Shown: positions 3,761 through 48,400 of the stretch, in pieces | Position numbering within the stretch: the first letter of the stretch is position 1 | How the letters are laid out: every line of letters begins with the position of its first letter | Assembly (NCBI GenBank): GCA_001938485.1 | Contig: MQRK01187548.1 | Coordinates: 1-55,507, forward strand | DNA: 55,507 nucleotides | Source of the DNA: Girardia tigrina | Lineage: Eukaryota | Direction: 5' to 3' | Program-made: the position numbers and the translations under genes | Notes under the pieces: generated by a model | Seen by the model: the letters and a program-made list of their open reading frames with translations, nothing else | Told to the model about the DNA's origin: nothing | The model's database searches: none

Positions 3761-4734
3761 GTATACAAAATTTTATTAGCACAAAACAAGTACAAAATTA
3801 GGGTCACAGAGGACCACAGAGAAAGGGCCGTTTTAGACTACAGCGTCTTTTAAACGTCCAGTGATTGGATTCGTTCCAGGATTGAGTTGGTAGGTGTATC
3901 CTTTGAACAGGCATTGTAACAGAGAGTGTTATGTTTCGCCCAAGTCGATGCACAGTGTTTGATGCTGGAAATTACACATCTTCTCCTGAGACTATTGATT
4001 GCGGTTTCGGATAACTTCAAATCTTCGAGTACCTCATTATTCTTTTCTGGCGAGGAGCCGAGACATCTTACGACAATAGTCCCGAGTTTAATGTTCCATC
4101 CTGGGTATTAGCTTCTTTNNNTTTGGGCTTTAGCTTCTTTTTCCAGGGGCCCATACTTGGTTTCATTAAGTTCTCTTGCAGACTTGAGGTTTTCAGTCTC
4201 GTCATACGGAGTTTTGATATCAACTGGCCATAGAGTTCTTCCTCCGGTGTTTTTGGCTTGGATATCAATTCTTCTGGTTGAAGTTGAGAAGTCGCTTTGT
4301 TCGTCATTCTTGATTTCGTAGTAAGGTATTTCGAAATCAATAGCTTCGACAACAAGGTCAACCACTGCAGTGACAAGCGCCATGTTCATGTTGCAGTGAC
4401 ACAGAACATGCATTTGTGTTTCGACATGTTGTCGGCATGCTCTGCAGAGTGTATGTTCCCTTGGTTTCCCTGGTTTGAAGTTGACAGGCAGATTTCCTGT
4501 TCGAGCTTGGTGGATGNNNNNNNNNNNNNNNNNNNNNNNNNNNNNNNNNNNNNNNNNNNNNNNNNNCGGCATGCTCTGCAGAGTGTATGTTCCCTTGGTT
4601 TCCCTGGTTTGAAGTTGACAGGCAGATTTCCTGTTCGAGCTTGGTGGATGAATCGCCATTCTGTTGCAGTGAGGCTTCCATCATACAATACTTGGCTGGA
4701 TATTTTATTTTTGCTCAGAGCGTCAGCCGATCTA

Positions 4735-6225
4735 CTAGCATTCGATTGTCTTGACCAATCCACAAATTTCTGGTGACGATATAGTCTGTGAAATTGGAAG
4801 GACAGAGTTTTCTTGTTTGCGGCAGATATTGTTAAGGATTCTTTGGATGATTTGATATTTAGACATATGCCNNNNNNNNNNNNNNNNNNNNNNNNNNNNN
4901 NNNNNNNNNNNNNNNNNNNNNNNNNNNNNNNNNNNNNNNNNNNNNNNNNNNNNNNNNNNNNNNNNNNNNNNNNNNNNNNNNNNNNNNNNNNNNNNNNNNN
5001 NNNNNNNNNNNNNNNNNNNNNNNNNNNNNNNNNNNNNNNNNNNNNNNNNNNNNNNNNNNNNNNNNNNNNNNNNNNNNNNNNNNNNNNNNNNNNNNNNNNN
5101 NNNNNNNNNNCAGGTTAGGTTCCTGAATGCCTGGATGATTGATTGTATGGCATATTCATCGCGGGTTTCAACGAGTCCGAGTCCGCCATATTCTTTCCCA
5201 GCATAGAGATAGTCATTGGAGGCTGTTGGTTGAAGTCCACATATAGGCTTTATGATCTTTCTGATTTCTATGTCAAGACCGTAATCAAAGACTTTGTTTT
5301 TGACTTCTGAATGACCATATTTGGATAGTTCTCTATTCGGAATATTGTAATTTCGGAATTGGAATATCAGGCGCGAATGAATGAAGACCTTGTATGCGTC
5401 TAATTTTTGCCACGGGTCAAGAGATGAGTCGGCAATCTTTTTCATATCGTTGATGATACCTTTGAATAGTTCGATGGGGGAACTTTTTGTTTTTCTTGTA
5501 AAATCTACCCCCAGGTATCTATATCCCTTTTCGTCGTCCACTATCGGAATTTCTTCTTCATTGATGAAGATTTTTTCATTCGCCTTTGTTGTTGATAGAT
5601 AGCCGGATTTGCTCGGATTAAAGGTCATTGATGTCCAAGAGGCCCATTTGAAGGCATTATTGACCATTTCTTGCAGACCTTCATTGGTGTTGGAAATCAA
5701 GGTAATATCGTCGGCATAGGCTAGACAGGAAATTTTGATGTCTTTGATCGTGATCCCAGAGTCTGGAGAGTTGTGAATCTCTGTCAAGATTGGATCAATA
5801 CCGATGTTGAAGAGTAACATTGATAGTGGGTATCCCTGTCGAACCCCTCTGTTAATTGGTATTGCTTGAATCGAGCGGCCATTACAGGAATAATCAGATG
5901 TGTTGTCTGTGTAGATCTGACGTATTAGGTCACAGGATTTGGAGTTCATTCCTTTTCTACGTAGTATCTCTATCACATGAGCAATGGGCATTCTGCTAAA
6001 TGCATCTGTGAGATCAAGGAATGCTACGTGTACTTCTTCCAGTTCTTCCAAAATGATCCTGAGCACATTGTTGTGTTCCGCACACCCATCTGAAGTTCCA
6101 GTTCTTTTTTGGAGTGGAAAAATTATGTCATTGTCTGATAACCATTTTTCAAGCTGGGATGTCAAGCAGGACGCAAAAACTTTGTATATGCACTCAAGTA
6201 GAGCTATTGGCCTCCAGGAGGACAC
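4735..6225 (-). pseudogene. Non-LTR reverse transcriptase domain
   Basis: RT motifs including YADD; frameshifted relative to 6230-6787 and 4108-4763. Confidence 0.9.
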
Positions 6226-6949
6226 TTCATCATATTTGCCTATATATTGGAATCAGTATGGTGATAAATTCGCCCCAGTTCTTTGGAGTTTCGCTTTTGT
6301 CCATGATTTTTTCAAATAGCTTGGTTAGAATTTTGCCACTGGGATCACAATATTCAATGTCTTTGTATGTGATGTTTGATTTTCCAGGGCTAGATTTTTT
6401 CATTTTTGATAACACGGATAGAACTTCTGTTTCTGTTATCTTCTTGAATTGAAATTCCGGTCCTTGATCTATAAGAGGACAATTGGTCCAGTCAGTCACA
6501 GGGGGGTCCGGTGTTTTTGTTTGACCATATTCCTGGATCTTTTCAATTGGTGGACTTGTATTCACCTTTGTATCCGATAGAATCATTTCTATCACCTTTT
6601 TGGGCTCGGTTCTGTANTTGATGTGGAGGTGTGAATCGTTCTTACCTCTGTCTTTACCGATTTTGCCCATGTATGGTTTTTTACAGCTTTTTTTCTGTTT
6701 TTGCAGAATGAATAACTGGAGCTTTTCAGAATATTCTTCCATGGGGTCATTTGAAGCTGATTTGAGGAATTCTTCAGCATCTGTCAATCAGTCTTGGTAC
6801 GTTTGGTTCTGTTCATTTTGTTTTCCTTTTTCTGTAGGATGAGCAGAGATTTTGTTGAATCTTTTCTTTTTTGATAGTTCCCATATAGTTTGCCCATTGC
6901 CTTGATTAACGTCGTCATTGTTTATTATTTGGTAGATGTAATTGGCGAT

Positions 6950-7705
6950 TCAATAACCATTGCCAGCAAATTTTTCCGATTTTGTTGTATCAATTTCGGC
7001 AGGATCCCAAAGGTTGTCGTTCCTGTAGAATGAGTGGATATTCTTATTCAGGGTTTTAATGGCTATCCATTGTTCATCAGATATCCTTGGTAGTCTGTTT
7101 AAGACGGTTGTCCTTTGATTCTCTTGATCAAAGGATATCAAGATCCATTGCATATCTGATATGCAGAGTGGACAAAGGACAAGTCTTTTCCCGTCAAACG
7201 ATGAGTAGGAGATGTGTTTTTTTATGAATTCTTCATTCCCCTTGCTTATTATGTGGGTGATTCTGTGGTCCAAGATCATAATGTCATCTGGTATTTGTAG
7301 ATTTTGACTTAACTTGGACATTTGTTCAGCTCGGAAGTTGTACAGATCGGCTTTGACTTGTCTTTTCTCATTATGTTCTTTTTCAGTCTTTTTGCTTTCT
7401 TTTTTTGTGTACTTTTTTGTTCGTGGTTTGCGTTGCTGCTTTTTGTTGGTGGTAGGTTCTCTTCCTCCCCCTCTGGATTTTGGTTTTATTTGGCTGTTGA
7501 CATGTGGTTTCAACGCGTGCGCTTTTAACCTGATTTCCCAGATGGGTATATCAAATAGGGGGTTCTCCTTTCTATTGATGAAATTCTCAATAAACCCACA
7601 GGTGAATGGTCCGCAGTCATAGTTATTTTTCTGCTGTTGACATGTGCTATATCTGATTGGAAGTTTAATGTTGAAGAGGTTGTTATTTTTATCTGTTGCT
7701 GTTAT
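6950..7705 (-). pseudogene. Ulp1/C48-like cysteine protease region of the non-LTR element
   Basis: QQQKNNYDCG catalytic-Cys motif, then a second unit resembling a Ulp1 N-terminal half (ILDHRITHII...LVLCPLCISDMQWILISFD). Confidence 0.65.
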
Positions 7706-7708
7706 CTT

Positions 7709-8052
7709 ATATATATAGAGTCTTGGGAACGCAAGTTTAATATTTCGAAAATATAATTTGATTAAAGCTTTTTTTATATAATTATTGGACATGTTTCGAT
7801 GTTTACATACATCATCATCGGCAATTTTCAGATGTTTAGTATATGAATATTGAATTGTTTGAATAATACAATTTTAACAGTTATATTTACTTTAATAGGT
7901 AACAAAAAATTAATTATTATTATTTATCAAAGTATTATTGGGTAATAATGGCAAAAAGAATATTTTAATTAAAAATTTTAAGTATTGAAATAACCTTACG
8001 TTGCCCATTCTGAATGTTAATTGATGGGTTGTAGTGTCTTATTAGTAGAGAT
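7709..8052 (-). mobile_element. Penelope-like pseudo-LTR (GIY-YIG C-terminus, 3' UTR, hammerhead)
   Basis: Minus strand starts SLLIRHYNPSINIQNGQ...ILKIFN*, a typical PLE endonuclease tail. Homologous copies at 43080-45428 (split by a mariner) and 49325-49410. Confidence 0.75.
7784..7825 (-). ncRNA. Minimal type I hammerhead ribozyme, core variant
   Basis: AUUG-CCGAUGA-U-GAUGU(AUGUAA)ACAUC-GAAAC-AU-GUC-CAAU; U4 to C change in the CUGAnGA core. Confidence 0.7.
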
Positions 8053-12351: not shown

Positions 12352-12699
12352 AAATTGTGTGCGAATGAATTCCGACGACAGTTCTACAACATTTTTTTTG
12401 GTTAATGTGATGGTGAGCCTCATTTTTATTTTATTTTTTTTGTAATTGGTCTTTCTCACTCTGTTTGTGTGTTTTGAGCCAGTGAAATGTGTTGTGTATC
12501 ATGAAATGAAAATATGTGTGTATGTTTGCCCAATGGCGAACAAGTGTGTATGTATGTTGGAGAGAAAAGTCATTGTAAAAAGACATTTTAAAAAAAAAAT
12601 TAACTGAGTTCAAATAAAATTTTTGAATTTGACGAGTCTTTTCCTTTTTGAATTAATAAAAGGCAAAATAAAAAAAATTAAAAAAAGTTAAATTCTTCT

Positions 12700-13773
12700 A
12701 TGGAAATTCAATTGAATCTTGATGATGTTTCCCAACGAATTAAATGTATCCAACTGTTAATTGAGTTCTTCCATAAAGACGTCGAACACATCGAAGAAGT
12801 TCTCGACGGAATAATAAATAGTTTATTAGTGATTTTGAATTGTCGGGAGAATTTGTTTGACCAAATTAAAATAGAAATAATCGATAAAATTTGTCTGATT
12901 AAGGTGTTTTTGAAAAGTGTCACCTGGTATTTGAATATGACCATTAAAAATGAATTTCACACCAAAATGATTAATTTTGTCAATTCCTTGATTCGATTGT
13001 CGATGAGACAGGGATTGGCCGTTTATCTATCGATCATTGATGGCGTTTTTGTCAGTTTTGGAGAACTATTAAATTGTGTTTCTATCATTCAAATCGCAGA
13101 AATAGATAGTAAAATCGTTGTGGTGGAGTCGATGCCAGATTTNNNNNNNNNNNNNNNNNNNNNNNNNNNNNNNNNNGATGATTTGCTTGCGTTTTTGAAA
13201 GTCGGTGATTCCCGAGCCAAATCTGTTGTGATCGGTTGTTTGTTTCAAATTTTTGATGCTCAAGGATTGCATGGATTGAAGGATCAATCATCTTTAAAGC
13301 CAAAAGTGGTTATGTTAATGGCCAGCTTATTTATTGAGTTTTCCAGAGTCGTAATCAGTTTTGAATGCGATTTGATAACAACAATGGATTCCGGTTGTGT
13401 TTTCAATTTCGAGGCTTTAGAGAGAGAGTGTTTTGCATTGTTTGCATTGTTGATGAGCGCCAACAATGACAATGGTTTGTCCTTATTTAATTTTTTCCAA
13501 AAAGTTGAAGGACTCTTGCAATGGATGCAAAATGATAATAATNNNNNNNNNNNNNNNNNNNNNNNNNNNNNNNNNNNNNNNNNNNNNNNNNNNNNNNNNN
13601 NNNNTATTAAAGTGAAAACAAATAAAGATATGAAATTCCTGTTTGATATAATTTTGAAATCTTTTGATCACATTTCTCAAAATATACAATTTAAAAAATT
13701 AAGAACCTCTGCGGAGATACAACAACCGTCTTTGTTAAAACTTTCGTACGATTGCATCCGTCTAATTAATTAA
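12700..13773 (+). CDS. Helical-repeat protein resembling the N-terminal HEAT region of ATR kinase
   Basis: 357-aa ORF (with two gaps). Segments IINSLLVIL...IIDKICLIKVFLKS and FLKVGDSRAKSVVIGCLFQIFDAQGL resemble, from memory, ATR N-terminal IITRLLRIA...ICEVICSLLFLFKS and LLEYGSPKIKSLAISFLTELFQLGGL. Confidence 0.5.
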   Translation: MEIQLNLDDVSQRIKCIQLLIEFFHKDVEHIEEVLDGIINSLLVILNCRENLFDQIKIEIIDKICLIKVFLKSVTWYLNMTIKNEFHTKMINFVNSLIRLSMRQGLAVYLSIIDGVFVSFGELLNCVSIIQIAEIDSKIVVVESMPDXXXXXXXXXXXXDDLLAFLKVGDSRAKSVVIGCLFQIFDAQGLHGLKDQSSLKPKVVMLMASLFIEFSRVVISFECDLITTMDSGCVFNFEALERECFALFALLMSANNDNGLSLFNFFQKVEGLLQWMQNDNNXXXXXXXXXXXXXXXXXXXXXIKVKTNKDMKFLFDIILKSFDHISQNIQFKKLRTSAEIQQPSLLKLSYDCIRLIN

Positions 13774-21424: not shown

Positions 21425-22607
21425 ATGTCGATAAACTCATTCATTTTACTAAGTAATATTTATTTTTTTTAATTTTCAAAATTTCTGTTTGAGTACATTT
21501 TTCATCATCAAAATATTTTTTTCAGCTATTCTTTTGAACAGTTTGGTTGTTTTTAAAACGGTCAATGGAACTACTAAGTTGAAGGTCTCGAAAAATTCTA
21601 CGAAATTTCCTCATCCTTTTAGTAGCCCATTTGATATTCAACTTACACCTCTTAAACCTTTAGTCAAAAATTTGAGCGATTGGAAAATGGATACGTTGGT
21701 AGTGAGACTTAGAGATAAATCAAATTCCGAGATTGAGAGAGCGACGTGTACATACGGGGGTCAATCTGGGACGTGTGATCATTTTCTCGGAGATTTCATT
21801 CAAATTCCTTCTTGGAACATCAATCGCAAAAAACATTATATTGCTTTTTATATTATGTTTACAAAACACTCAGATCGAATGTTTATAGAAATATACCAAA
21901 TCTCAGCTAAATCAAGACACGAGCTGGCCATAAAAACGGACAATCTAAAAGCGGAGAATATAATTTATAATTCTCAAATTTTGTTAAGTATTCCTCCAAC
22001 CCTTGACATGAGAATCAAAATGGAAGGGGATCGTCAAGATAAATCAGAGGAAGGAGAAATCGGGGTAATCACTTGTAGATCATATGGGATCATCTTCTCA
22101 ATCAAACCGGAAATTGTTAATAAAAATCAGTTCAATATTCTTTCTGAAAGTTATGATAAAGATAAAAATGAGATCGAATTGCGAATTCAACTCTCGATTG
22201 TTGATCATAAAGAGAAGGTTGTCTGTCGTTCAGGAAATGCAAAAGCTGAAGTCGAAATCAAAGTGTCGCGTATGAATCTATTTTGTAAATTGACATCAAT
22301 AATATTTTATGTACAGATTCTCCAACTAAAGTCATGGTTTACCCAAACGTAAATACAAAATTGAAAATAGGTAAACGTGTACTTTGTCGGTACGTAGACG
22401 GCTATCCGATACCAAATACGTATTGGTCATTTATCGAAGGACCTCAAAATGCTTTGAAATATTATGTGATTAGTAAAAACGGAAAGAACTTATATTTTAA
22501 AAACGAAGTTCCGAAAGATTCCAAATGGATGTTTAACTGCAGTGCTTCTTCTAGTGTATCAAAATTTAATGCTATATTAAATAGAACTTTACTGATGCAG
22601 ATCAACG
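21425..22607 (+). CDS. Spliced secreted/cell-surface Ig-superfamily protein; exons 21425-21452, 21526-22269, 22317-22607, 3' exons unresolved
   Basis: GT-AG phase-1 introns join in frame to give a signal peptide (MSINSFILLTILLNSLVVFKTVNG). Ig-like C...C pairs: ITCRS...VVCRSGN and LCRYVDGYPIPNTYW...FNCSASS. Donor GTGAGT at 22608. Confidence 0.75.
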
Positions 22608-24390: not shown

Positions 24391-24555
24391 TTATTATCTT
24401 TAATTTAAAATTTTAATATATTAATTTATTATGTTCTTTTTTTAAAAAATATTTTTAGATTTAATTTCAACCAATTAAATTCTTTATAATTAATTTTTAT
24501 TAACAGATTTTCATTTATTGAAAATAATTAGTTTGAAATAAATTCATCAAGAGAG

Positions 24556-26830
24556 ATGTCAAATAGTGAATGTGCTTGTGATATTAATAAATGTTGTAAA
24601 CCTCATATTGATGTTGTTAATATGGCGACCACAGCTCATTTGACAATGACCATTATGGGACACGAAAAATTTGATGGATCCGAGTCGAAATTAGATGACT
24701 TCGTAAAAAAATTCAAACGTTATGCGGATATTATGGGTATAACAGAAGATAAAAGATTAGTGATGGTGACGATCTTCATGACTCTATATGCAATCACAAA
24801 ATTTTCAGAAGCAGATAGAAATACGTATAAAGAAAAGCTTAAAACGGAATTTGTGAAAGAAAAATCTTTGCTCGAAACAATGAAGGATATTTCAAATATC
24901 CGGTGGGGATCTTCAGATCACGAAGAAATGTTAAAAAAAGCCGACGAGTTAGTAACGATATTAACAGAAAGTAAACTTTTTAAGAAAAAGCTGCTCAGCC
25001 TTGTTTGCATGAATATGGTTGACGATTATGAGGTGAAAAGAGGATTTAAATTGAGAGGAGCTACCGAAACAAAGGACATAAAAGATGTAGTTTCAAATAT
25101 GTATGAACTACGCAAAATGAAAAAAAGAAGAAACAGTTGCGGCATACAATACGGTAGGTAAACATGATAAATGGAAAACGGTAGGCAAACGTAAACCACA
25201 CTATAAAGAATGCAACCAACAAAGAAATATCGAAAATAGGTACACTAATCAAAGAAATAACTATTCAAAAGTTGTAAAATGCTGGGTATGCCACGAAGAA
25301 GGACACATCAGAAGAAACTGTCCAAATATAAAGTGTTCATATTGCAATAAAAATGGCCATATCAGGACGCAATGCTACATGAACAAGAATATATTTAAAG
25401 AAAGAGCCCAATATGCCAGGAAAAAGGAATGACAAAGAACAAATAAGCCACGAAATCAACAGAGGCATCAAAATCGAAGATATGATATTGCAGAAATGCA
25501 TGATGAAAACAATTACAACGAATATGAAGAAAAACGATCAAATGAAGGAAACTCGAGGCAAAGAATGTTAACAGATAATAGACAAGTATACGACAAAGAC
25601 AAGGGAATCTAGGATGCACGATCACAAGGACAGGTGATCAGTGTGCTTCACTAAAAAGTAAAAATGTGTGTGTGTGATTGTGTATGTAATCATATGTATG
25701 ACTGTATGTGTGATTGTGTGTTGGAAGATACCCCTCTCGAAGTTTGTGAATTAGATTGTTGGAAAGAAGATTTTGAAACATACTGTTTTGATAAGGAGAT
25801 AAAGAAAAAAATCGCAAAAGTTGAAACAGGAAGAAATGTTGAAAATATCAAAGCTCAATATTAGATATGACAAATTGAATGGAAGACCAAGCATTGAATT
25901 TAATACAAAGAATATGAATGTTGAATGTCTTTTGGATACCGATGCCAAAGTAAATGTTGTTAAAGCAGATATACTTAAAAGTATGAAAGATGTTCAGATA
26001 GAGAAAACGAGTAAACGCATTCATTGTGCAAATGATTCATAACTTATAAATTATGGAATTGTTAAATTAAAAGTAATAATTGAAGTACAAAAAAATAATA
26101 GAATTTTATGTAGTCAAAGAACTCAACCCAGAAATGATAGCAGGAGTTGACTTTTTGGACAAATGTGGAATAAAACTAAAGAAGGAAATTTTAGATTCAA
26201 GTGACATATGGATGATTAGAGATAGTCCAACAGATGATGTCAGACTAAAGAGAATTAAAGAAATATTTAACACCAAAGTTGACAACGAACTAATGAGACT
26301 ATTAACAGAATATAAATCAATATTCATGGCTGACAAGTGGGATGTTGGGAAAACTTCCTTAACGAAACAAAAAATAGAAACAACCGTGGAGAACCAGTTT
26401 TAGTGAAGCCTTATTGACTACCACAACATTTTGAAGAGAAACTAGATGATCTCATTAGAAATTTTGAAGAAAACGGTATAATTGAAAAGTGTAGTTCTCC
26501 ATCGAACTTCCCTCTGGTGTGTGTATGGAAAAAAGAGAAACAAGACATCCGAGTATGTGTCGATTTTCGACAGTTGAATAGAATTACAGTAAGACCAGCA
26601 TTTCCCATTTCAAGTGTGGATTACATGTTAAACACGTTGAATGGAGCAAAATATTTTAGTACAATCGATCTGGGAAATGCATATTATCAGGTTTAATTAA
26701 AAGAAGATTCAAAGATTAAAACTGCGTTTTCAACAAAGAATGGTCAATATTGTTTTAAAAGAATGCCTTTTAGAATTGCTGCGGCTCCAGCTACCTTTCA
26801 AGAATTAATGGTGAAAGTTCTAGGAGAAGT
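24556..26830 (+). mobile_element. Gypsy LTR retrotransposon relic (gag, protease, 5' RT)
   Basis: Gag with CWVCHEEGHIRRNC and CSYCNKNGHIRTQC knuckles, LLDTDAKVNV protease, RVCVDFRQLN and FSTIDLGNAYYQ RT motifs; multiple stops. Confidence 0.9.
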
Positions 26831-28878
26831 GCGTTGATAATCAAGCGCCTTCCGTTCTCTTCTAGCATCACTGGGACTGTCCTCAAGGCCACGTAGTAGT
26901 TTTCGTCCCTTGTCCCAACCTTTCATGTAACTAATGTCTGCTCTCCTTTTACCGTCCATTCAGTAACTCTTTTTCAACGTAATGGATCAACTGGTGGTGT
27001 TTCCTTCCGCACTGTTTGAATTTCCAAAAACTCCGACAATCCTTCGCCTGATGAGAACTTTTGAGACAGTTGAAATATAGTCCTTTCTTTTTAACTAGCT
27101 GGATCCTTTCCTCCACTGTCAGCTCTTTGATTTGTTTACATTCTGTCAACATGTGCTCTGTTTTTTCGCATAATATGTATCTTTTTATCCACTCCTGTCT
27201 TGATTTTGCTCGTCCTGTCTCATCTGAAGTTTTCCTTCGTTGATTGTTCTTTCTGTATTCCGTTCCTGATTGAGTTGTATCAACTTGTGCCACATATGTG
27301 CGTTTCTCATCTTCTTTACTATGTTTCCGGATCCCAGTCAAGGTTTCTTGCACTCCTCTTCTCAGTATCGCTTCCTTTTGAACCCACTTTAACAACTCTT
27401 CGACACTGGCTGACACTGACTGATCTTGTACACATCTTTGATGTTGCAATAATGTTTCTGGTGAGAGTTTTTTCATTAGAGTCTGGAGCATAAATCCGTC
27501 CTGCAGTTCCGACTCCTTCTTCATCTCTTTGAATCTCACCATCGCGTTCTCCACTAACTCCGCAAACCGTTCGAAATCTCCAATCTCCCCCGACCTAATT
27601 GGTCGGAATCTCTCCACGTCTTCTAAAACCGATAAATATAGCCGTCTATTCCCACCATATCTCGTTTCTAGGCGTTGTAGAGCCAATTTGAAAGCCGCTT
27701 CTCCATAACCAAGGTTTTCAATCAATCGAAGAGCTGGCCCATTCAAATAGTTTCGGAGCTGTAGGACCTTCTCTTCATTAGACGCATTTGTAATTTCAAT
27801 GCAATGTCTGAATGCAGCTCTCCAGTTTTCATATTCTTTAGAATTACCACTGAACTAAATCACCAATCTTTAAATCATGTTCTTTTGTTTTCTTATCATA
27901 TGTTTCTTTATATGATTCTTGACTATATTTAACATTTAAAAATAATATAAAAATAAATAAAAATAAATATTTATTTAATATTTAAAAATAAATTAAATAT
28001 TAAAAATATAATATAAAAAATATTTATTAAAAGAAAAAAAATTATTATATAAAAAAATATACAAAAAATTAAAAATATAAAGAATTTATATAAATAAAAA
28101 AAAAGTAAAATTAATAAAATTAAAAAAATTATAATTAAAATTATTAAAAAAAAATAAGAAAAAAAGAAAAAAAATAAAAAAAGAATAGAAAAAAAAATAT
28201 TTTTTTTAATTTCGTCAGTTTTCGAAATCCGGACAAGGTTCGTTGTTGTGCAACCTTAGTTTCAGAATTATTCGATCTGCACTGCTCTGCTGCACTATTT
28301 TCTCCTTTAATGAGCATTAATGGCTCCATTTCCTCATATTTTTTCTCTATTCCCTTAAGGTCTTCTTCGATCTCGTCCACTCTGTTTTCTTTTCCCAATC
28401 GAATTCTCAGATCTTTTATATTTTCTAATTTTTCCACTAATTCTAAGTATTTCTCTTCATACTGGAGTATTGCTTCAGTTTTCTCTTCACTTGACTTGGC
28501 ATCACACGTTTTATTTCTCAGCCTCGTCAATAGCCCTTTCTCGAACCGTTTTCTCTTCTATTCATTTTCGAACTCGTCTTCTAGGTGCGCCGTTTCCATA
28601 CCGCCTCTAAGTCGTAAGAGCATCTGGATAGTGCACCCATGTTTTATGTTGCAGCTCCCTGCAGTTCTCCCATCCAGAAGCTCTATACGACTGAGAATCA
28701 ATCTTTGTAACCGCACTGGAATCCCTTCTTTGCGCCACAATCTTTCCTTTTGAGTCTCGATGCCGTTTAGCGAGACTCTTCTTCGAGCATTTGACATAAT
28801 TACAATTTTCGGCTCCTGCAACGCCTCAGGCAAAGATAACATTCGAAGAGTTTTCGCACCTTTTTCGACAGATTTCAC
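26825..28878 (-). mobile_element. BEL/Pao LTR retrotransposon relic (ubiquitin-like domain, gag, start of protease)
   Basis: DUF1759-type FSGNSKEYENWRAAF...EKVLQLRNYLNGPALRLI, BEL zinc knuckles (FNCLKSSHQAKDC..CGRKHHQLIH), protease start VALRTVPV...IINALL; AT-rich insertion at about 27856-28220. Confidence 0.85.
28597..28812 (-). pseudogene. Ubiquitin-like domain N-terminal to BEL Gag
   Basis: KIVIMSNARRRVSL...IETQKERLWRKEGIPVRLQRLILSRIELLDGRTAGSCNIKHGCTIQMLLRLRGG aligns with ubiquitin [44 protein letters not shown]. Confidence 0.85.
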
Positions 28879-29301
28879 CCCCCCCCNNNNNNNNNNNNNN
28901 NNNNNNNNNNNNNNNNNNNNNNNNNNNNNNNNNNNNGTCGCAACAAAATAGGGAAGGACATAATAAATGTGGATTTATTTTTATTAATATTATAAAATAT
29001 ATTTTTTAAATTATTAATGTGTCTTATTTTATTAATTTTGTAAAATATATTCTCAAAATTATCAATATTTTTTATTTTATTAATATTTTTTTATTTTATT
29101 AATATTAATGTTTTTCATTTTGTTAATATTAATGTATTTTATTTTGTTAATATTAATGTTTTTTTATTTTATTAATATTAAAGTTTTTTATTTTATTAAT
29201 ATTATAAAATATATTTTTTAAATTATTATAAATATTAATATTACAAAAAAACATCAATTTTAAATTCTAAATAAAGGTCATTGCACAAAATCACCTCGCT
29301 T

Positions 29302-29335
29302 GCCGGCGGCTGCCGGCGGCTGCCGGCGGCTGCCG
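29302..29335. repeat. GC-rich 10-bp tandem repeat (TGCCGGCGGC)
   Basis: About 3.5 perfect units in an AT-rich context. Confidence 0.9.
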
Positions 29336-29337
29336 AC

Positions 29338-29355
29338 AACCACGCTCTGTTACCA
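29338..29355 (-). other. Putative primer-binding site complementary to the initiator tRNA-Met 3' end
   Basis: TGGTAACAGAGCGTGGTT resembles the iMet PBS consensus TGGTAGCAGAG; no clear LTR CA end adjacent. Confidence 0.5.
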
Positions 29356-29722
29356 ATATTTTTTTTTCGATTTTAAATTTCTCGGCCCACTGATGTCCAT
29401 TTCTCTCTCCCATTGACCATTATAATTCAAAACCATTACTCTTATAGAAGTTATGTTACTCGTATTTATACAACACAAATATAATATTATTACATAACCC
29501 TGTAATATATTTTCGCTCTCGGTGTAATCATTGAAATAGTTTACTTTCGTAAAAAGTATTAGTTTTTTACTATTTACTACTTAGAAAATTATTACTTTTC
29601 TCGAAAGTCAAATACTTCCACGATTACACAAGAAGGAAAGATACATAAGAAAAAATTAAAATCTAGAATTATTAGGCTGTCCAGTATGAAATTTGTAGGC
29701 ATGATAAAAATCAATTTAAATA

Positions 29723-30690
29723 TTAGGTTGGCCAAAAAGTCATTGCGTTTTTTACTAAAATATTTATTATCAAAAAATGACATGGATGCACAAATATTTT
29801 TATACGATATACTGTCCATTATTTTCAATCACTTTCTTCCACCTTTCCGGTAGCTTCATTATTCCTGATTCATAAAAACCTTTGCCTTTGTCAGCAAAAA
29901 AGTCGTCTAGGAACGATTTGATGTCATCATCACTGGCGAATGTTTTTCAGTTTAAGGAATTCTGCAGTGATCTAAATAAGTGAAAATTCAATGGGGCCAA
30001 GTCTGGAGAATACGGTGGGTCCAGCGAAACCTCCCAACCCAGTGATAAGAGTTTCTGGCTAGTGTTCAAACTTGTATGCGGTCTTGCGTTATCATGCTAA
30101 ATTACAACTCATTTTCGATTTGCCAATTTAGGACGTTCCTGTTGAATTGAATCAGCCAATTTCTCCAGTTGACCACAATATCTGTCTGAATTGATGGTTT
30201 CATTCCTCGGAAGGAGTTCAAAAATACAATTTCTTTAAAATCCCATCAGATGGAAAGCATAAACTTCTTTTAGTGAATTTCTGCTTTTGAAATCGTTTTG
30301 GCAGACTCACCACGTTTTGTCCATGAACTATTCCACATTGTTGTAAACAATCCATTTTTCATCACCCGTAATCAAGCTCAATTGATGGTTTCATTCCTCG
30401 GAAGGAGTTCAAAAACACAATTCCTTTAAAATCCCATCAGATGGAAAGCATAAACTTCTTTAAGTGAATTTCTGCTTTTGAAATCGTTTTGACAGACTCA
30501 CCACGTTTTGTCCATGATCGTCGGCATTCCACATTGTTGTAAACAATCCATTTTTCATCACCCGTAATCAAGCTCTTCAAAAATGGATTACTTTGTTCTC
30601 CCTTCAAAAGAAACCAGAAACCAAGACTTCTGATAATATTATATATGTCCTTAAATGTTGGCATTAACTTTAACATTTTGAAAAAATTAT
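29723..30690 (-). mobile_element. Mariner transposon relic, 5'-truncated, with an internal ~190-bp tandem duplication
   Basis: TA-TTAGGTTGGCCAAAAAG TIR; ITGDEKWIVY and PPYSPDLAP motifs; about 30189-30379 repeated at 30380-30575. Confidence 0.9.
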
Positions 30691-31050
30691 TGTGGTGATG
30701 TCACTCATCACCATATTCAATAAAATTTAACTTCAGAGATGTCACATAACATGGCATCACTAGAATTCAAATTCCGTTGATTTCATACGTCACTGGAATA
30801 TGTAATTGCAAGGTCAATTTCAATTGCATCAATTGACCCCGGGTAATATTATACAATATTGCCTTAATCTAAAAGAGGAGGATTTTCCGGTTTAATTGGT
30901 TATCAAACCTCGATCAATATTTTATATAATAAATTTTGTTATCTAGTTTGCGTTCTTTACACTCATATTTTAAGTAAATGTGATTTCACAGATTATTATG
31001 GCTACTTTTTTTGTGTTTTATATTATTTTTGTTTAGGCAATCATTTTAAT

Positions 31051-31998
31051 ATGATCGACAATCAGACCAGAACACCGCCGGTTCCCGAATGGAAGGTTTA
31101 TATGAATCAGAAAGAAAAAGATTGGAATTCACTTTATCAACAAGTTTCCTTACGACAGTATGATGTAAAAAATAGTTTAAAAACAGTTATTTCAAAATTC
31201 GATGAATTCAAACAAAAATATACAATGGATTTTAATAAAACGAACTTCGAAGATGAAAAAACTAATAGAGACATTGCTCAATTGAAGCATCTAATTGAGG
31301 GTCACAATAAAACAATAGTTAACTTAAGTATGAGTTTAAAAGCCACTGGAAAGAATCTTGGAAATCCTTCGATCGATCTTATGCAAACGACTCGTGATCT
31401 CAACAGACAAAATCGGATGATTCAAGGGTTGAAAGAAGGTCTTTATGTTCTCGAGAGAGGATTAAAAAATATGAATGTAAGGATGATAACCTATTTGTAT
31501 TTTTTAAACTAATTTCAGATTACAGTTTTTCAAATCATGTTGAAAAATCTCTTATTAAAGCATTCTCAGCTTGTCTTGACTGAACAAATTAAGTTTGTCA
31601 AGCAGCATCTTTACTGGGTGTCACCAATAACATGGTCTATCAGTAATACTACTATTACTGACCATGACAAGGAAGCTTTAAGTGATCCCTTTTATTCCTC
31701 AATCAAAGGATATAAAATGTACCTTTTCGCGAGTTTTTCAAAGGAAAACATACGATTCCATTTATATTTACCTAATACCATTCGAAACAATTATAATGGT
31801 AAACCTTTTAAGTTTAGCATTGCTGTAACAATTAAGCACCAACGATTCGACAGTATCACAAAACAAGTCAAAATTCAATCAGTTATCTACAGTTTTCCAG
31901 GAGTAAGCGGATTTTTAAATTTTAATCATCTCGAGCTGGAGCAGGAAGGATTCATTTCCGGTGGTCTTCTTACTCTAACCTGTGATGTAACGGAATAA
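31051..31998 (+). CDS. TRAF-like coiled-coil + MATH domain protein; exons 31051(or upstream)-31476 and 31519-31998
   Basis: A 42-nt phase-0 GT-AG intron joins the two ORFs in frame. MATH motifs: ITWSISN, SDPFYSSIKGYKMYL, GFISGGLLTLTCDV. Confidence 0.8.
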
Positions 31999-32429: not shown

Positions 32430-33060
32430 CGCTAAAATAATCAATTGCTAAAATAGTTATCATTGTTATAAATATTTATTAATTTCGACGGTTTAACCGT
32501 CATCGTCAGAACAAATGATTTTTCAAACGAAATTTACTTATATAGTGCAGTTAATGATTATGTAATCAAGGCGTCTTCAGTACATCATTTAAAAACTCTC
32601 AACAAAGTTGTAGAGAGTGCAGTTTGAACGTTAATTTTAGGATCCAAAGATCTTATATATAACGCTTCACATGTCACTCTCTCCCAATAATTTTTAAATT
32701 GAGTGCACAGTGTTGTGAAGTTATATCTCCTTTAAATTGAAAATGAAAGCATGTTTGGCAATAAATCTCCAACGCCATTGGGATTGTGTTCGGATCTCAT
32801 TTATCAATATACATGTAATGGGTGTAACATCACATACATTGGAGAGACTTCATGTCATCTCTGTAAGAGAATCCAGGAACACAGTTGCAATGAAGGCGGA
32901 AGTAACATTGCAGGACATAGAAGACATTGTAAAGGAGATATAACTTCACAACACTTTAAAATTCTGTGCTCTCGATTTAAGAATTATTGGGAGAGAGCGA
33001 CATGTGAAGCGTTAAACCTCGTTAAGCGTCGACGGTTAAACCGTCGAAATTAATAATCAT
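32430..33060. mobile_element. Penelope-like element fragment with inverted pseudo-LTR
   Basis: Plus strand GIY-YIG LIYQYTCNGCNITYIGET...RIQEH (32751-33053); about 32660-32734 is an inverted copy of 32930-33014 that continues to the EN stop, 3' UTR and hammerhead on the minus strand. Confidence 0.85.
32473..32513 (-). ncRNA. Minimal type I hammerhead ribozyme with intact core
   Basis: UGUU-CUGACGA-U-GACGG(UUAAA)CCGUC-GAAA-UUA-AUA-AAUA; palindromic stem III AUUAAU. A partial plus-strand copy lacking CUGA lies at 33031-33056. Confidence 0.8.
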
Positions 33061-43248: not shown

Positions 43249-45255
43249 TTAGGTGTACAACTAATTAATTTCGTATTTGTTACGAAATAACCTTATATTC
43301 GTATTTGGTACCTCATTTCATATTTGTTACCTCATTTCGAATTTGTTACTAACCTCATATCTATTTATGTAGTCAATAGTCAATTTTATTGAATTTTAGT
43401 AAACACACAAATTTTTTTTATTACAGTCAAAATGTCAAATTATGTTCCAACAAAACAGCATTTGCGGGATGTTTGCTTTTGTTCTTTAATTTAAGGAAAA
43501 GTGCAACAGAAGCACATCGTTTACTCTCAGAAGCTTATCCTCAATATGCTCCAGAGGTTAGAGTATGTCAGTAGTGGATTGCACGATTTAAAATTGGCGA
43601 TTTTGACACAGAAGACAAAGAGCGATCAGGTCCATCAAAAAAGTTTGAAGACAAAGAATTGAAGGCATTACTCGATCAAGATCCATGTCAAACTTAGGAA
43701 GAACTTGGAAAAACATTGGAAGTCACTCATCAAGTCATTTCTAAACGTTTAAAAGCAGCCGGATACATTCAGAAACAAGAAAATTGGATGCCACACGAAT
43801 TGAAGCCGAGAGACATTGAGAGACGATTTTGCATGTCTGTATTTATCGCCACAAAAAGAAACCGTTTTTACATCGTATTGTCACTGGCGATGAAAAGTGG
43901 ATGCATTACGACAACCCAAAGCGTAAAAGATCATATGTGAAGCCAGGCCAACCAGCCAAATCGACACCAAAGCCGAATATTCATGATTTGAAGGTAATGC
44001 TCTGTATTTGGTGGGATCAGAAGGGTGTTCTGTACTATGAGCTATTAAAATCGGGCCAGACGATCACGGGAGAGCTATACAGGCAACAATTTATACGTTT
44101 GAAGCAAGCAATAGCCGAAAAACGGCCAGAATGGGCGACCATTCACGAGAAATTAATTTTCCATCATGACAATGCTCGGCCACATGTTGCAGTACCGGTC
44201 AAAAATTATTTGGAAAATGCCGGATGGGAAATTCTACCTCACCCGCCTTATAGCACAGACATAGCTCCTTCTGANNNNNNNNNNNNNNNNNNNNNNNNNN
44301 NNNNNNNNNNNNNNNNNNNNNNNNCAAAGAGCGATCAGGTCCATCAAAAAAGTTTGAAGACAAAGAATTGGAGGCATTACTCGATCAAGATCCATGTCAA
44401 ACTCAAGAAGAACTTGGAAAAATATTGGAAGTCACTCAACAAGACATTTCTAAACGTTTAAAAGCAGCCGGATACATTCAGAAACAAGGAAATTGGGTGC
44501 CACGCGAAGTGAAGCGGAGATACGTTGAGAGACGATTTTGCATGTCTGAAATGCTGCTTAATCGCCACAAAAAGAAACCGTTTTTACATCGTATTGTCAC
44601 TGGCGATGAAAAGTGGATTCATTACAACAACCCAAAGCGTNNNNNNNNNNNNNNNNNNNNNNNNNNNNNNNNNNNNNNNNNNNNNNNNNNNNNNNNNNNN
44701 NNNNNNNNNNNNNNNNNNNNNNNNNNNNNNNNNNNNNNNNNNNNNNNNNNNNNNNNNNNNNNNNNNNNNNNNCCAGACGATCACGGGAGAGCTATACAGG
44801 CAACAATTGATACGTTTGAAGCAAGCAATAACCGAAAAACGGCCAGAATGGGCGACCAGACACGAGAAATTGATTTTCCATCATGACAATATTCGGCCAC
44901 ATGTTGTAGTACCGGTCAAAAATTATTTGGAAAATGCCGGAATTTGAAATTCTACCTCACCCGACTTATAGCCCAGACATAGCTCCTTCTGACTACCACT
45001 TGGTTCGGTCGATGCAGAATCACTTTTCTGGAATACGGTTCACCAATGTTGAAGGTATTAAAAAATGGCTTGATGACTTTCTCGGCGCAAAAGATGAGAA
45101 GTTTTTTTGGGATGGAATCCATAAATTGCCTGACAGATGGGAAAAAGTTGCTGCTTCCGATGGACAATATTTTGAATAAAATATTTTTTCACTTTTATAC
45201 TTAAATAAATGGTTTTTTAACAAAAAAATACGAAATTAATTAGTTGTACATCCAA
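43249..45255 (+). mobile_element. Mariner (DD34D) transposon, pseudogenised
   Basis: TIRs TTAGGTGTACAACTAATTAATTTCGTATTT / AAATACGAAATTAATTAGTTGTACATCCAA with TA TSD; WMPHEL, TGDEKW, HDNARPH, YSPDIAPSDY motifs; middle part duplicated across a gap. Confidence 0.95.
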
Positions 45256-45439: not shown

Positions 45440-48400
45440 AATTGCTGAGATAGTAGAGGTGTCAGATAGTAGATGGTGGAGTCATGTTAAGCTGAACAAT
45501 CACAATGTATTAATGCTGTGGGATAGTGGAGCGGGTGTTTCAGTTATTAGTGAGAAGGTTTGGTTGGAAATCTGGCAAACCAGATTAGAAAAGAGTCCAA
45601 TGGAGCGTTTTCAGAAAGCCATAAGTGTTTGGGGAAAATGACAGTGAAGTTGAAATGGAAAGAAGAGTGCCATGTGGTAGATTTTTTAGTGGTGAAAACA
45701 ATCCAACCGACAGTCATTGGAGGTGTTAATGTCATACATACATTCGGAATCAAACTTGAAAAAATTACCAAGAAGTCAGTTGTGATAGTGGAGAAAGATA
45801 TGAAACTGCAAGAGCAAAACAAACGAGTGGAAGACCTTGTGAAACGATATGATGATGTTTTCATGAAACGTGAATACGATTTTGGAAACAACGGATATTG
45901 TTGTCAATAAAATTGAAACAGAAGGTAAATCGATTTTTCTGAATGCAAGAAGGCAATCGATTCATTCAGAAAGTCAAATCGAAGGATTTTTGAAAGGATT
46001 AGAAAAGGCAGGAATAATTCGGAAATGTAAAAGTTAATGGAACTTCCCGTTAGTCATTACGCCAAAGATAGAGGTATTCGAATTTTTCTAGATTTCAGAA
46101 AATTGAATGATGTATCAAAGAAAGTTTCCTTTCCAATGCCAGACAGCCAAATGTTAATGGATGCTCTGGTTGGCTCCAGAATTTTTTCCAGTATACATTT
46201 AGGCCAAGCATACCATTAAGTAGCATTGGTTCTCAGGAAAAGACTGCATTTAGCACAAGAAAACAGAAGTATTGTTTTAACCGTGTACCGTTTGGACTTT
46301 CAACAGCACCCGGAACGTTTCAGAGAATAATAAATTCATTATTTGAAGATTTACCATTCTCTGGAGTAGTAATATACCTAGATGATGTCTTAATTTACTC
46401 AAAATCTATGAAGGATCATATGAGACTATTAGAAGAAGTATTGAATAGACTGAAGAAAGCAGGTTTAAAAGTCAATCCATGGAAATGCAAATTCGGAGTG
46501 GGGGAGCTGGTATTTCTGGGACATATAATTAATAAAGAAGGTATCTCAACAAATAAATTGAAAGTGGCAGAAATTCAAAATTTTCCGATTCCAAAGTGTA
46601 CTCGAAATTTACGAGCATTTTTAGGTCTGTGTAACTACTATCGACGATTTATCAAGAAATACGCCGAATTAGCAGCACCTTTACACAGTGCATGTAGCGG
46701 AAAATGTAAAGAAATATTTTGGTCAGACCAGTGCGACAGAAGTTTTAACGAATTAAAGCAAAAGCTAGTGGTGTACCAATATTAGCATTTGTGAACCCGA
46801 ATAATAATATCATCTTAGACACAGATGGATCATTCGGATCGATAAGAGCATTTTTTAGTCAGATATCCGAAGAGAAAGAAGTAGTAATCGCGTATGCATC
46901 GAGGAGTTTAACCACACATGAAAAAGGGTACTGTGTGACAAGAAAGGAACTATTAGCTTTACAAGAGTTAATGTTACATTTCAAGAAATATTTATATGGC
47001 AAGCGATTTACATCAAGAACTGATCATAACGCACTGGTTTATATGAAGAGTACTTCCAAACCAATAACTTCTCAATTCCAGACATGGTTATTAAACATGG
47101 CGGATTTTGACTTTGATTTGAAGTATAGAAAAGGTGACGAACATGGAAATGCAGATGGATTATCACGGCTATATGACGACGTTTGTGCACAATGTGAAAC
47201 AAACCACGAAAAACCAAAATCATTAAAAGCAAGGGTGAAATACATCAATACAGAAGTGATTCAGTCTACAATTCAATGGATAAAAGACGAACAAGAAAAG
47301 TGCTCAGAGTTGAACCAGTTGAAACAAATACATGAGGCAGCAGAGGATGAAAAGAATGAAATAACCAAGGCTTTATTACAACTAAAGGATCAAATAGTTT
47401 ATCAGAATGGGTTATGGGATAGGTAAGAAGGAAATGGTGTGTTACCATTGGTTCCGAAGCAAATTAGAAGAGATTTCATCCGGAAAATACACAGATTTTT
47501 ATGTCTTGTAGGTATCAAAAAGACAATGAAGTATATCCAAAATCATTTTATGCTACCAGATTTAGCGAAAGAGGTGCAAATCGTTATAGGAGAATGTCTG
47601 GAATGTATACGCAGAAACATTCCAAGTGAAAACAAACAAAGGAGAAGTTGATTCCAATAAGAAGTGACGAGTTTTTAGAGCAAGTCGTGATGGATATCGC
47701 ATATTTGGGTGACAAGAATAGCATGTACCCATATACAGGGTGGGCCAAAAGTAGGGTTACAGTTGCTTCATTATCTGTTTCGCCTTCACAATCACGTTTA
47801 GATATAAATTATAGAAAGTGAATGAATTGAAAGATTACATTTCAGATGCATTCACTGAAATTGATGGAGATCGGAATTTGTGTCGTACTGTGTGTCAGAG
47901 TGTTTTGTACAGATATAGAGATTGTTGCAAGGTTGAAGGTGGACATTTTGAGCACTTGAGAGATTAAATGTTCAATGTAAAATGTTTATTATGTAAATAT
48001 AATGTATGTAAATAAATGTCTAAATTTCTAATAAAGATAAAATGTTTAAGTGTTAACTGTAACCCTACTTTTGGCCCACCCTGTATATTGGTCATGGTGG
48101 ACCACTTTTTGAAATTAGTCTCTTTGACAAAGATAAGAACTCAAAAGGAAGACACCATAGTTCAATGCGTGTTGATAAAATGGATATATAGATATGGGAA
48201 GCGAAAAACAATATTAACAGACAATGAAAAATGTTTTACTGACGGAAAATTTAACGATTTTTGCAGGAAATATGGAATCGAACAAAGATTTGGTAGCCCA
48301 TTTCAACATCAATCAAACGGGCTGGCAGAAAGAACTATTCGAACAGTGAGAGACATGATATTATAAAGCACAGGAGACACTACCAAACGATTATGGTGGC

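What the first reader, a model, noticed from the sequence alone, without database searches (positions are those of the whole stretch)
26825..28878. Ubiquitin-Gag fusion at the head of a BEL/Pao retrotransposon
Seen: a diverged ubiquitin-like domain with an intact LRLRGG C-terminus is followed directly by METAHLEDEFENE, one TAG (28558-28560), then in the same frame (28557 to 28530 is 27 nt) KRKRFEKGLLTRLRNK..., a BEL-Gag-like helical start leading towards DUF1759, the zinc knuckles and the protease. Known: linear ubiquitin fusions are cut after GG by deubiquitinases, as in ubiquitin-ribosomal protein precursors and in ubiquitin insertions in pestivirus polyproteins. Inference: this family encoded a Ub-Gag-Pol polyprotein that uses host DUBs to release Gag with a defined N-terminus, or uses the Ub-like domain as a decoy or chaperone. 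Strong divergence with GG retained suggests selection within the element rather than a recent chance insertion. I do not know of this architecture as standard for BEL/Pao.
Basis: partly seen in the sequence, partly recalled or inferred. Interest (0 to 1): 0.8.

Follow-up and report, generated by a model that had tools for sequence, protein, structure and literature searches.

The report
Ubiquitin spacer frees retrotransposon Gag
This is a broken copy of a BEL/Pao retrotransposon family that, like at least six sister families in the same genome, has a ubiquitin fused right in front of its Gag protein; host enzymes likely cut there, which would free Gag from pieces of captured host genes that sit in the element's terminal repeats and are likely translated ahead of it.

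Summary
Of 46 copies, 40 keep GG, 40 keep the Met after it and 42 have a sense codon where the window has TAG. The window copy is dead: a 345-bp deletion removes ubiquitin residues 1-22, and it has an insertion and both ends truncated. Intact copies hold a full 76-aa ubiquitin (AlphaFold pLDDT 86; about 1 A rmsd to ubiquitin) with a modest purifying-selection signal (p = 0.025). Ubiquitin-GG precedes Gag in 36 of 40 readable top DUF1759 loci, in seven families. Their ubiquitins are 30-96% identical to the host's. The LTRs carry ATG-started frames with host gene fragments (beta-tubulin, cyclophilin, BTB; PRMT, HSP70, Vac14 in sisters); the tubulin piece lacks the host intron. In sister families one frame runs LTR-PBS-ubiquitin-Gag. 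In this family 0 of 10 gap-free copies are open that far, so that step is inferred. Best reading: a DUB-cleavable spacer that frees Gag from a variable passenger. Cleavage and expression are untested, and I showed no second species. Ten literature searches found no report. An unchecked note of this scan read another genome the same way.

The parts
29358..29420 (-). Last 63 bp of the 5' LTR (end of the cyclophilin-cargo LTR type); the rest of the LTR is lost
   Evidence: blastn to the LTR of L058, 87% over 63 bp
29340..29355 (-). Primer-binding site; the LTR frame runs through it in family copies. Assignment to initiator tRNA-Met is recalled, not tested
   Evidence: motif located; 35 exact pattern matches in G000, 0 for the reversed control
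28949..29339 (-). AT-rich leader with 18-nt-type repeats; open in the PBS frame in many family copies, frame-broken here
   Evidence: PBS-to-motif distance is a multiple of 3 in 16 of 28 copies, binomial p = 0.008
28879..28960 (-). Pyrimidine tract and G-run, predicted hairpin; an assembly gap of 50 N lies at 28887-28936
   Evidence: RNAfold hairpins in 5 family copies and 4 copies of a sister family
28762..28878 (-). Remnant of the 131-codon linker in front of ubiquitin
28758..28761 (-). Junction of a 345-bp in-frame deletion (4-bp microhomology) that removed most of the linker and ubiquitin residues 1-22
   Evidence: 243 bp here against 588 bp in 16 of 27 copies; breakpoints; a loose contig end in run X2 carries the upstream letters at the same place
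28600..28761 (-). Ubiquitin-like domain, residues 23-76, ending LRLRGG
   Evidence: PF00240 39.7 bits; PDB
28212..28599 (-). Gag N-terminal helical region, starting with Met directly after GG
   Evidence: helix predicted right after the junction
28558..28560 (-). Premature TAG; a stop at this site in only 3 of 46 copies
27856..28211 (.). AT-rich insertion of about 356 bp inside gag, absent from other copies
   Evidence: gap between blastn blocks 28761-28212 and 27855-26825
27435..27854 (-). DUF1759 (BEL/Pao capsid region)
   Evidence: PF03564 49 bits
26982..27179 (-). Three degenerate zinc knuckles, each lacking a Cys ligand that other copies keep
   Evidence: translations
26825..26950 (-). 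Start of the aspartic protease after a frame break; the element is truncated here, with no pol or 3' LTR in the window

Best explanation
This is a decayed copy of a BEL/Pao LTR retrotransposon whose Gag-Pol is fused directly behind a ubiquitin domain, and the ubiquitin likely serves as a spacer that host deubiquitinases cut after GG, which would free Gag from a variable passenger that is likely translated from the LTR. SHOWN: a 7.6-kb element with TG..CA LTRs, PBS, polypurine tract and gag-PR-RT-RH-IN; a whole ubiquitin in frame with Met-Gag; the same layout in six sister families; LTRs holding ATG-started frames with host gene fragments in the PBS frame; a tubulin fragment lacking the host intron; single open frames from LTR through PBS to ubiquitin and Gag in sister families. 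INFERRED: (1) the cargo lies in U5, since its ATG sits 34-56 nt after an AATAAA/ATTAAA signal; (2) reverse transcriptase switches onto co-packaged abundant mRNAs while copying U5, so the fragments enter both LTRs; (3) ribosomes start at the cargo ATG and read about 450-500 codons to Gag; (4) a USP- or UCH-type enzyme cuts after G76. On this reading the passenger only has to stay open while ubiquitin and Gag are conserved.
For: Junction kept: GG in 40 of 46, Met in 40 of 46, frame in 38 of 46. Shared changes, synonymous:nonsynonymous:stop: ubiquitin 10:8:2, Gag N-terminus 16:10:1, DUF1759 16:5:0, linker 7:36:0; singletons are near neutral. Ubiquitin against singletons p = 0.025, against linker p = 0.013, against Gag p = 0.27. 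Sister-family ubiquitin against the closest host gene: pS 0.28-0.36 with pN 0.02-0.03 (fam2); pS 0.49-0.60 with pN 0.03-0.06 (4 fam3 copies). 36 of 40 readable DUF1759 loci have ubiquitin within 1 kb upstream. All seven families end ubiquitin at GG with Gag next, at 30-96% identity to host ubiquitin. In three families Ser or Thr follows GG, so Gag cannot start there on its own Met. Fold: pLDDT 86, with 92-96 in six of seven blocks over residues 1-70 and a flexible 75-77; Foldseek to ubiquitin E 5e-10, rmsd about 1 A. R42, R72 and R74 are kept in 6 of 6 rows and I44 in 5 of 6, while K48 and K63 are lost in 6 of 6. L139, L144, L153 and L166 are open without gaps from LTR through PBS to GG. LTR cargo: shared stops 0 of 68 against 14 of 223 singletons (p = 0.046), with no amino-acid constraint. 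Tubulin cargo runs across the intron that 4 of 4 host beta-tubulin genes have after codon 19.
Against: No cleavage, protein or proven RNA evidence. The runs laid are contigs whose RNA status is a guess. In this family 0 of 10 gap-free copies are open from PBS to GG. At the G-run only 8 of 29 copies continue in frame and 14 of 29 have a stop right after it, so translation from the LTR is inferred from sister families. The PBS frame is the longest open frame upstream in only 20 of 29 loci; fam7 is registered differently. The within-family selection signal on ubiquitin is modest and absent among changes shared by 2-3 copies (8:33). Glycines are well kept elsewhere in ubiquitin too (G10 at 90% or more), so GG retention alone is weak. 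R74 is replaced by C, Q or L in fam2, famP and fam7, which could slow cleavage (from general knowledge of DUB specificity). Four families have Met after GG and could start Gag independently. Some copies are assembly duplicates. The DUF1759 sample is the top 50 of 150 scored hits, not a random sample.
Confidence: 0.7

Rival explanations
1. The ubiquitin stays attached and works as an interaction domain on Gag, for example recruiting ubiquitin-binding trafficking or budding factors, aiding folding, or acting as a decoy for ubiquitin receptors.
For: The I44 patch is largely kept. The domain is under purifying selection along its length, not only at the tail. R74 varies among families.
Against: Integral ubiquitin-like domains usually lose the terminal GG (general knowledge), whereas all seven families keep GG exactly at the Gag boundary. 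In fam1 the domain has drifted to 45% identity yet 34 of 46 copies keep LRLRGG.
Confidence: 0.14
2. Cleavage happens, but the selected product is the passenger-ubiquitin-GG half: a conjugatable or dominant-negative host fragment, or an RNA decoy that turns silencing onto host genes.
For: Cleavage would leave a free GG end. K48 and K63 are lost in fam1. Cargo types are amplified into many copies (20 cyclophilin, 12 tubulin, 9 BTB in my loci; 61 PRMT matches).
Against: Cargo shows no amino-acid constraint (shared changes 24 synonymous to 68 nonsynonymous, against an expected synonymous share of 0.25). The tubulin piece has drifted to 49% identity. Cargo differs between near-identical elements, and one LTR type is shared between fam1 and fam7.
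Confidence: 0.1
3. Ubiquitin is one more captured fragment lying in an untranslated leader; Gag starts at its own Met and the fusion is neutral.
For: These elements capture many abundant mRNAs, and ubiquitin mRNA is abundant. Met follows GG in four families. No fam1 copy is open from the LTR.
Against: pN is far below pS for ubiquitin. The position is fixed in 36 of 40 loci across families only 28-65% identical in Gag-Pol. Three families have no Met after GG.
Confidence: 0.05

Closest known systems
BEL/Pao LTR retrotransposons (Belpaoviridae; ICTV profile PMC8742986, whole text read)
   Same: LTRs of 0.56-0.82 kb, 7.6-kb length, PBS, polypurine tract, DUF1759, three zinc knuckles, PR-RT-RH-IN order, a single gag-pol frame in the sister family of P0001.
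   Different: An N-terminal ubiquitin-GG and an LTR-borne frame with host fragments are not in the ICTV profile. 'Ubiquitin' occurs 0 times in the main text of the 73-genome survey PMC3118150 (passages seen). The profile names tRNA-Arg or tRNA-Gly primers; this PBS looks like initiator Met (recalled).
Ubiquitin insertions in cytopathic pestiviruses (BVDV Osloss, CP1, CP Rit; PMC8310069, passages read)
   Same: A captured host ubiquitin in a viral polyprotein that cellular ubiquitin C-terminal hydrolases cut to give an authentic N-terminus. In CP Rit another host fragment (S27a) lies upstream of it.
   Different: There it arises sporadically in single strains of an RNA virus; here it is fixed across at least seven old families, has diverged to as little as 30% identity and precedes Gag.
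LTR-mediated retroposition (Tan et al. 2016, PMC5131818, abstract and outline read)
   Same: Template-switch capture of spliced mRNAs by LTR elements, mosaics of several genes, frequent in-frame sense transcription.
   Different: Those retrocopies replace internal sequence between LTR pieces. Here the fragments sit inside the LTR itself and in the leader of elements that keep gag-pol, and they are followed by a constant ubiquitin.
Burro giant Gypsy elements of planarians (PMC6431247, passages read)
   Same: An LTR element polyprotein with host-derived domains, including a Ubi2/SUMO-like motif.
   Different: Gypsy rather than BEL/Pao; the motif is internal, after an N-terminal Gag, and no GG cleavage role is described in the passages seen.
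Host ubiquitin precursors (polyubiquitin, Ub-L40; loci L093, L104, L112)
   Same: Linear ubiquitin-GG fusion with a partner protein; likely the source of the domain.
   Different: Host precursors start at ubiquitin Met1 and keep the sequence invariant; the element's ubiquitin is internal to a longer frame and has lost Met1, K48 and K63 in fam1.

Membership tests
BEL/Pao (Belpaoviridae) | LTRs of 0.2-1.2 kb, genome of 4.2-10 kb | tested here: met
   L033 and L046: paired LTRs 92% and 95-98% identical, TG..CA ends, about 7.6 kb; the window copy itself keeps 63 bp
BEL/Pao (Belpaoviridae) | Gag with DUF1759 and zinc knuckles; PR-RT-RH(Peptidase_A17)-IN order | tested here: met
   PF03564 in the window; full order in P0001, to which 5 fam1 copies align over 966-1021 of 1030 positions at 58-61%
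BEL/Pao (Belpaoviridae) | Polypurine tract before the 3' LTR | tested here: met
   G-rich purine run directly before the 3' LTR in L033 and L046
BEL/Pao (Belpaoviridae) | PBS complementary to tRNA-Arg or tRNA-Gly | tested here: inconclusive
   A conserved PBS abuts the LTR; I did not match it to a host tRNA gene; the initiator-Met assignment is recalled
BEL/Pao (Belpaoviridae) | Placement in a named lineage (BEL, Tas, Pao, Sinbad, Suzu, Dan, Flow) | not tested
   No named references were at hand; the tree holds only unnamed relatives and one sea-cucumber protein
Ubiquitin domain (PF00240) | Beta-grasp fold, 76 aa, C-terminal GG | tested here: met
   Family copies 56-59 bits over 72 of 72 positions; AlphaFold and Foldseek. 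The window copy has residues 23-76 only
DUB-cleaved linear ubiquitin fusions | Ubiquitin ends at G76 and the partner begins with a non-proline residue | tested here: met
   Met in fam1, famP, fam5, fam7; Ser or Thr in fam2, fam3, fam6
DUB-cleaved linear ubiquitin fusions | Cleavage after G76 in cells | not testable with these tools
   needs bench work
LTR-mediated retrocopies | Loss of host introns | tested here: met
   Beta-tubulin cargo crosses the codon-19/20 intron of 4 of 4 host genes; source genes for the cyclophilin and PRMT cargo were not found
LTR-mediated retrocopies | Microsimilarity at the fusion points | not tested
   The cargo is too diverged from the host genes found; one suggestive HSP90/ubiquitin-tail join in fam3 was seen at protein level only

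The most novel reading that the evidence does not exclude
The BEL/Pao elements of this animal use their LTR as a standing gene-fragment trap. Reverse transcriptase keeps sampling host mRNAs into U5, the fragments are translated as the head of the polyprotein, and a ubiquitin that is itself re-captured from host mRNA from time to time lets DUBs cut them off. Cleavage also leaves passenger-ubiquitin-GG proteins that could be conjugated or act as decoys. This would be a transposon-run exon-shuffling library with a built-in release tag.
Probability: 0.3. Interest if true: 0.9.

Novelty: new variant of a known kind. Interest (0 to 1): 0.74.

Why it matters
It would be a retroelement lineage that hands the maturation of its Gag N-terminus to host deubiquitinases, a trick known from sporadic pestivirus mutants but not found in my searches for LTR retrotransposons. 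It also explains how an element can tolerate constant capture of host coding sequence ahead of gag. That gives a testable route for host-gene fragments to be copied many times and translated, and a natural series of ubiquitin variants (30-96% identity) for mapping what DUBs need to cut a linear fusion.

Tried and rejected
1) The upstream LLLRLGGG as a second ubiquitin tail: rejected for this family. The same place reads differently in famP and folds as a pyrimidine/G-run hairpin in both (no shuffle control run). Fam3 does have a true partial second tail. 2) The deletion as a splice: the joined letters do not fit GT-AG; they fit a 4-bp microhomology. 3) TAG readthrough as regulation: a stop at that site occurs in only 3 of 46 copies. 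4) P0001, P0268 and P0129 as independent species: rejected. P0001's DUF1759 is 100% identical to L145, P0268 is 74-86% identical to the six best G000 loci, and P0129 is this family (82%). 5) Metagenome contig scan with P0001: 72 pattern matches, none confirmed. 6) Protein searches with ubiquitin in the query were swamped by polyubiquitin; the Gag-only search returned one protein. 7) Single-sequence fold failed (pLDDT 45). 8) The tree cannot say whether ubiquitin was gained once: deep nodes have support 0.61 and 0.71, many rows cover under 200 of 1030 columns, L122 gave no usable row, and six outside BEL proteins without PF00240 group weakly with fam1, famP and fam5. 9) Host source genes for the cyclophilin and PRMT cargo were not found. 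11) ESM Atlas gave no answer. 12) Host taxon was not determined; 'planarian' in two literature searches was a guess. 13) Literature: 10 searches found no ubiquitin-Gag BEL/Pao report; Repbase, Dfam, GyDB and subscription journals were not searchable, and no supplements were read, where such domain lists could stand.
Full report
Observation. The ubiquitin match is real (PF00240 39.7 bits; PDB) and DUF1759 follows (49 bits). The copy is a ruin: 63 bp of 5' LTR, a 345-bp in-frame deletion that removes ubiquitin residues 1-22, a TAG, an insertion of about 356 bp in gag, damaged zinc knuckles and truncation at 26825. Without its first two strands this copy's ubiquitin could not fold (inference).

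The family. A DNA search of the genome scored 40 of 148 candidates; all 39 besides the window match the ubiquitin-Gag part at 88-95%. I gathered 66 contigs, 46 with the ubiquitin end and 44 with the PBS; a few are assembly duplicates. Full elements are about 7.6 kb with TG..CA LTRs; LTR pairs are 92%, 95-98% and 98-99% identical in L033, L046 and L066. Intact copies carry a 76-aa ubiquitin (56-59 bits over the whole profile). At the junction 40 of 46 keep GG, 34 keep LRLRGG, 40 keep Met, 38 stay in frame, 42 have a sense codon at the TAG site and 3 a stop. An alignment-based model folds as ubiquitin (pLDDT 86; Foldseek E 5e-10, rmsd about 1 A). The alignment included host ubiquitin, so this shows compatibility with the fold, not proof. 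Against host ubiquitin, R42, R72 and R74 are kept, I44 in 5 of 6 rows, and K48 and K63 are lost.

Selection. Changes private to one copy are near neutral in every region. Changes shared by four or more copies give synonymous:nonsynonymous:stop counts of 10:8:2 in ubiquitin, 16:10:1 and 16:5:0 in Gag, and 7:36:0 in the linker. Ubiquitin differs from singletons (p = 0.025) and from the linker (p = 0.013) but not from Gag (p = 0.27). The class shared by 2-3 copies shows no such signal (8:33:0). These are counts of codon variants, not a tree-based dN/dS.

Sister families. A PF00240 search gave 3445 first-look candidates, of which 150 were scored, many in long frames. Of 50 top DUF1759 loci (30 best plus 20 chosen for long contigs, out of 150 scored), 40 had readable upstream DNA and 36 of these have ubiquitin within 1 kb; L148 and L209 appear disrupted upstream, and I did not establish why L152 and L214 lack it. 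Seven families emerge, 28-65% identical to P0001's family in the aligned Gag-Pol parts. Their tails are LRLRGG, LRLQGG, LRIRGG, LRLCGG and KLLGG, always directly before Gag, which starts with Met in four and Ser or Thr in three. Identity to host ubiquitin runs from 30% to 96%. In fam2 and fam3 synonymous differences to the closest host gene exceed nonsynonymous ones about tenfold. Within fam3, near-identical Gags carry ubiquitins of 91-92% (L166, L169) or 65-67% identity (L168, L210), and some carry part of a second ubiquitin tail, which suggests re-capture. The database proteins P0001, P0268 and P0129 all belong to families present in this genome, so I have not shown the system in a second species.

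The LTR cargo. Fam1 LTRs come in at least five or six types. Each has an ATG-started frame that reaches the LTR end in the PBS frame. Pfam names tubulin (E 1e-6) and cyclophilin (E 1e-5) in two types, and BTB (E 4e-4) in a third type, scored on a fam7 copy that shares it. Sister families carry RNA polymerase N, LSM, PRMT, HSP70, MAP65 and Vac14 pieces upstream of the PBS, and HSP90 and leucine-rich-repeat pieces between PBS and ubiquitin. Four of four host beta-tubulin genes have an intron after codon 19; the cargo runs across that point, so it came from spliced mRNA. In 13 of the 15 LTRs listed an ATG lies 34-56 nt after an AATAAA/ATTAAA signal (read by eye; these LTRs are AT-rich and hold several such signals), which places the cargo in U5 if that is the poly(A) signal (inferred). 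The cargo shows no amino-acid constraint but no shared stops (0 of 68 against 14 of 223, p = 0.046). Four gap-free sister copies are open from LTR through PBS to GG; L166 is one 1087-codon frame with Vac14 piece, ubiquitin and DUF1759. In fam1 the leader keeps frame in 16 of 28 copies and the linker in 20 of 27, but the G-run between them varies (in frame in 8 of 29, a stop right after in 14 of 29) and 0 of 10 gap-free copies are open throughout. Continuity in fam1 is therefore inferred from homology with famP; a frameshift or restart at the G-run hairpin is not excluded.

Mechanism. Most likely (0.7), translation starts in the LTR, a variable passenger precedes ubiquitin, and host DUBs cut after G76 to release Gag with a fixed start. 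This explains why the passenger is free to change, why ubiquitin always ends at the Gag boundary and why three families need no Met. Cleavage, translation and the capture step are inferred. Rivals: an uncleaved interaction domain (0.14), a functional passenger-ubiquitin product (0.10), a neutral neighbour (0.05).

Known systems. It is a BEL/Pao member on all tested structural features (ICTV profile, whole text); the primer tRNA and lineage are open. It works like pestivirus ubiquitin insertions (passages) and captures like LTR-mediated retroposition (abstract and outline). Burro elements have an internal SUMO-like motif (passages). The BEL/Pao survey has no mention of ubiquitin in its main text; a plant survey of extra LTR domains has it only in a reference title. 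Ten searches found no report of this layout; Repbase and Dfam could not be checked. An unchecked AI note of this scan (e1-7907883) reached the same reading on another genome; I had stated my reading before seeing it, and it is not independent evidence.

Verdict. Real, family-wide and genome-wide; a new variant of BEL/Pao. Interest 0.74.

Noticed in passing
window 4108-7873 (-): Non-LTR retrotransposon-like frames: RT (PF00078, 108 bits) with a zf-RVT hint, and upstream a partial Ulp1/SUMO protease match (PF02902, 25.1 bits, over cut-off). A retroelement with its own ubiquitin-like protease; NeSL-type elements are known for this (recalled).
   Followed up: partly
window 30868-31998 (+): A coiled-coil-like frame followed after a stop by a MATH-domain frame (PF22486 E 1e-4, under cut-off). 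MATH occurs in Burro elements; not examined.
   Followed up: no
window 24532-26700 (+): Gag-like frame and CCHC knuckles (PF00098) of another, probably Gypsy-type, element that abuts the truncated end of the BEL copy.
   Followed up: partly
window 29620-30000 (-) and 43820-44947 (+): Mariner-like transposase fragments (PF01359 at 43820-44458 and 44513-44944; the piece near 29800-30000 recognised by recall only).
   Followed up: no
L121, L132, L137, L166: Fam2 and fam3 Gags have CCCH-type zinc-finger matches where BEL elements usually have CCHC knuckles.
   Followed up: no
L066, L027, L208, L076: One LTR type (BTB cargo) is found on fam1, fam7 and fam5 bodies, which suggests LTR swapping between families.
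   Followed up: partly
L122, L123, L125: Fam2 Gag holds 252-bp tandem repeats in some copies.
   Followed up: no
G000: Dozens of tubulin matches covering profile positions 56-189 lie in open frames of 400-1300 codons; they may be tubulin pieces in other mobile elements.
   Followed up: no
L093-L102: A three-unit polyubiquitin found in several near-identical copies, with saturated synonymous distance to the other host ubiquitin genes, is the closest source of the fam2 and fam3 ubiquitin.
   Followed up: partly
window 32736-33050 (+), 46111-47423 (+), 12682-13770 (+), 21453-22349 (+): GIY-YIG fragment, Gypsy-type RT and RNase H fragments, and two long frames without a Pfam match.
   Followed up: no
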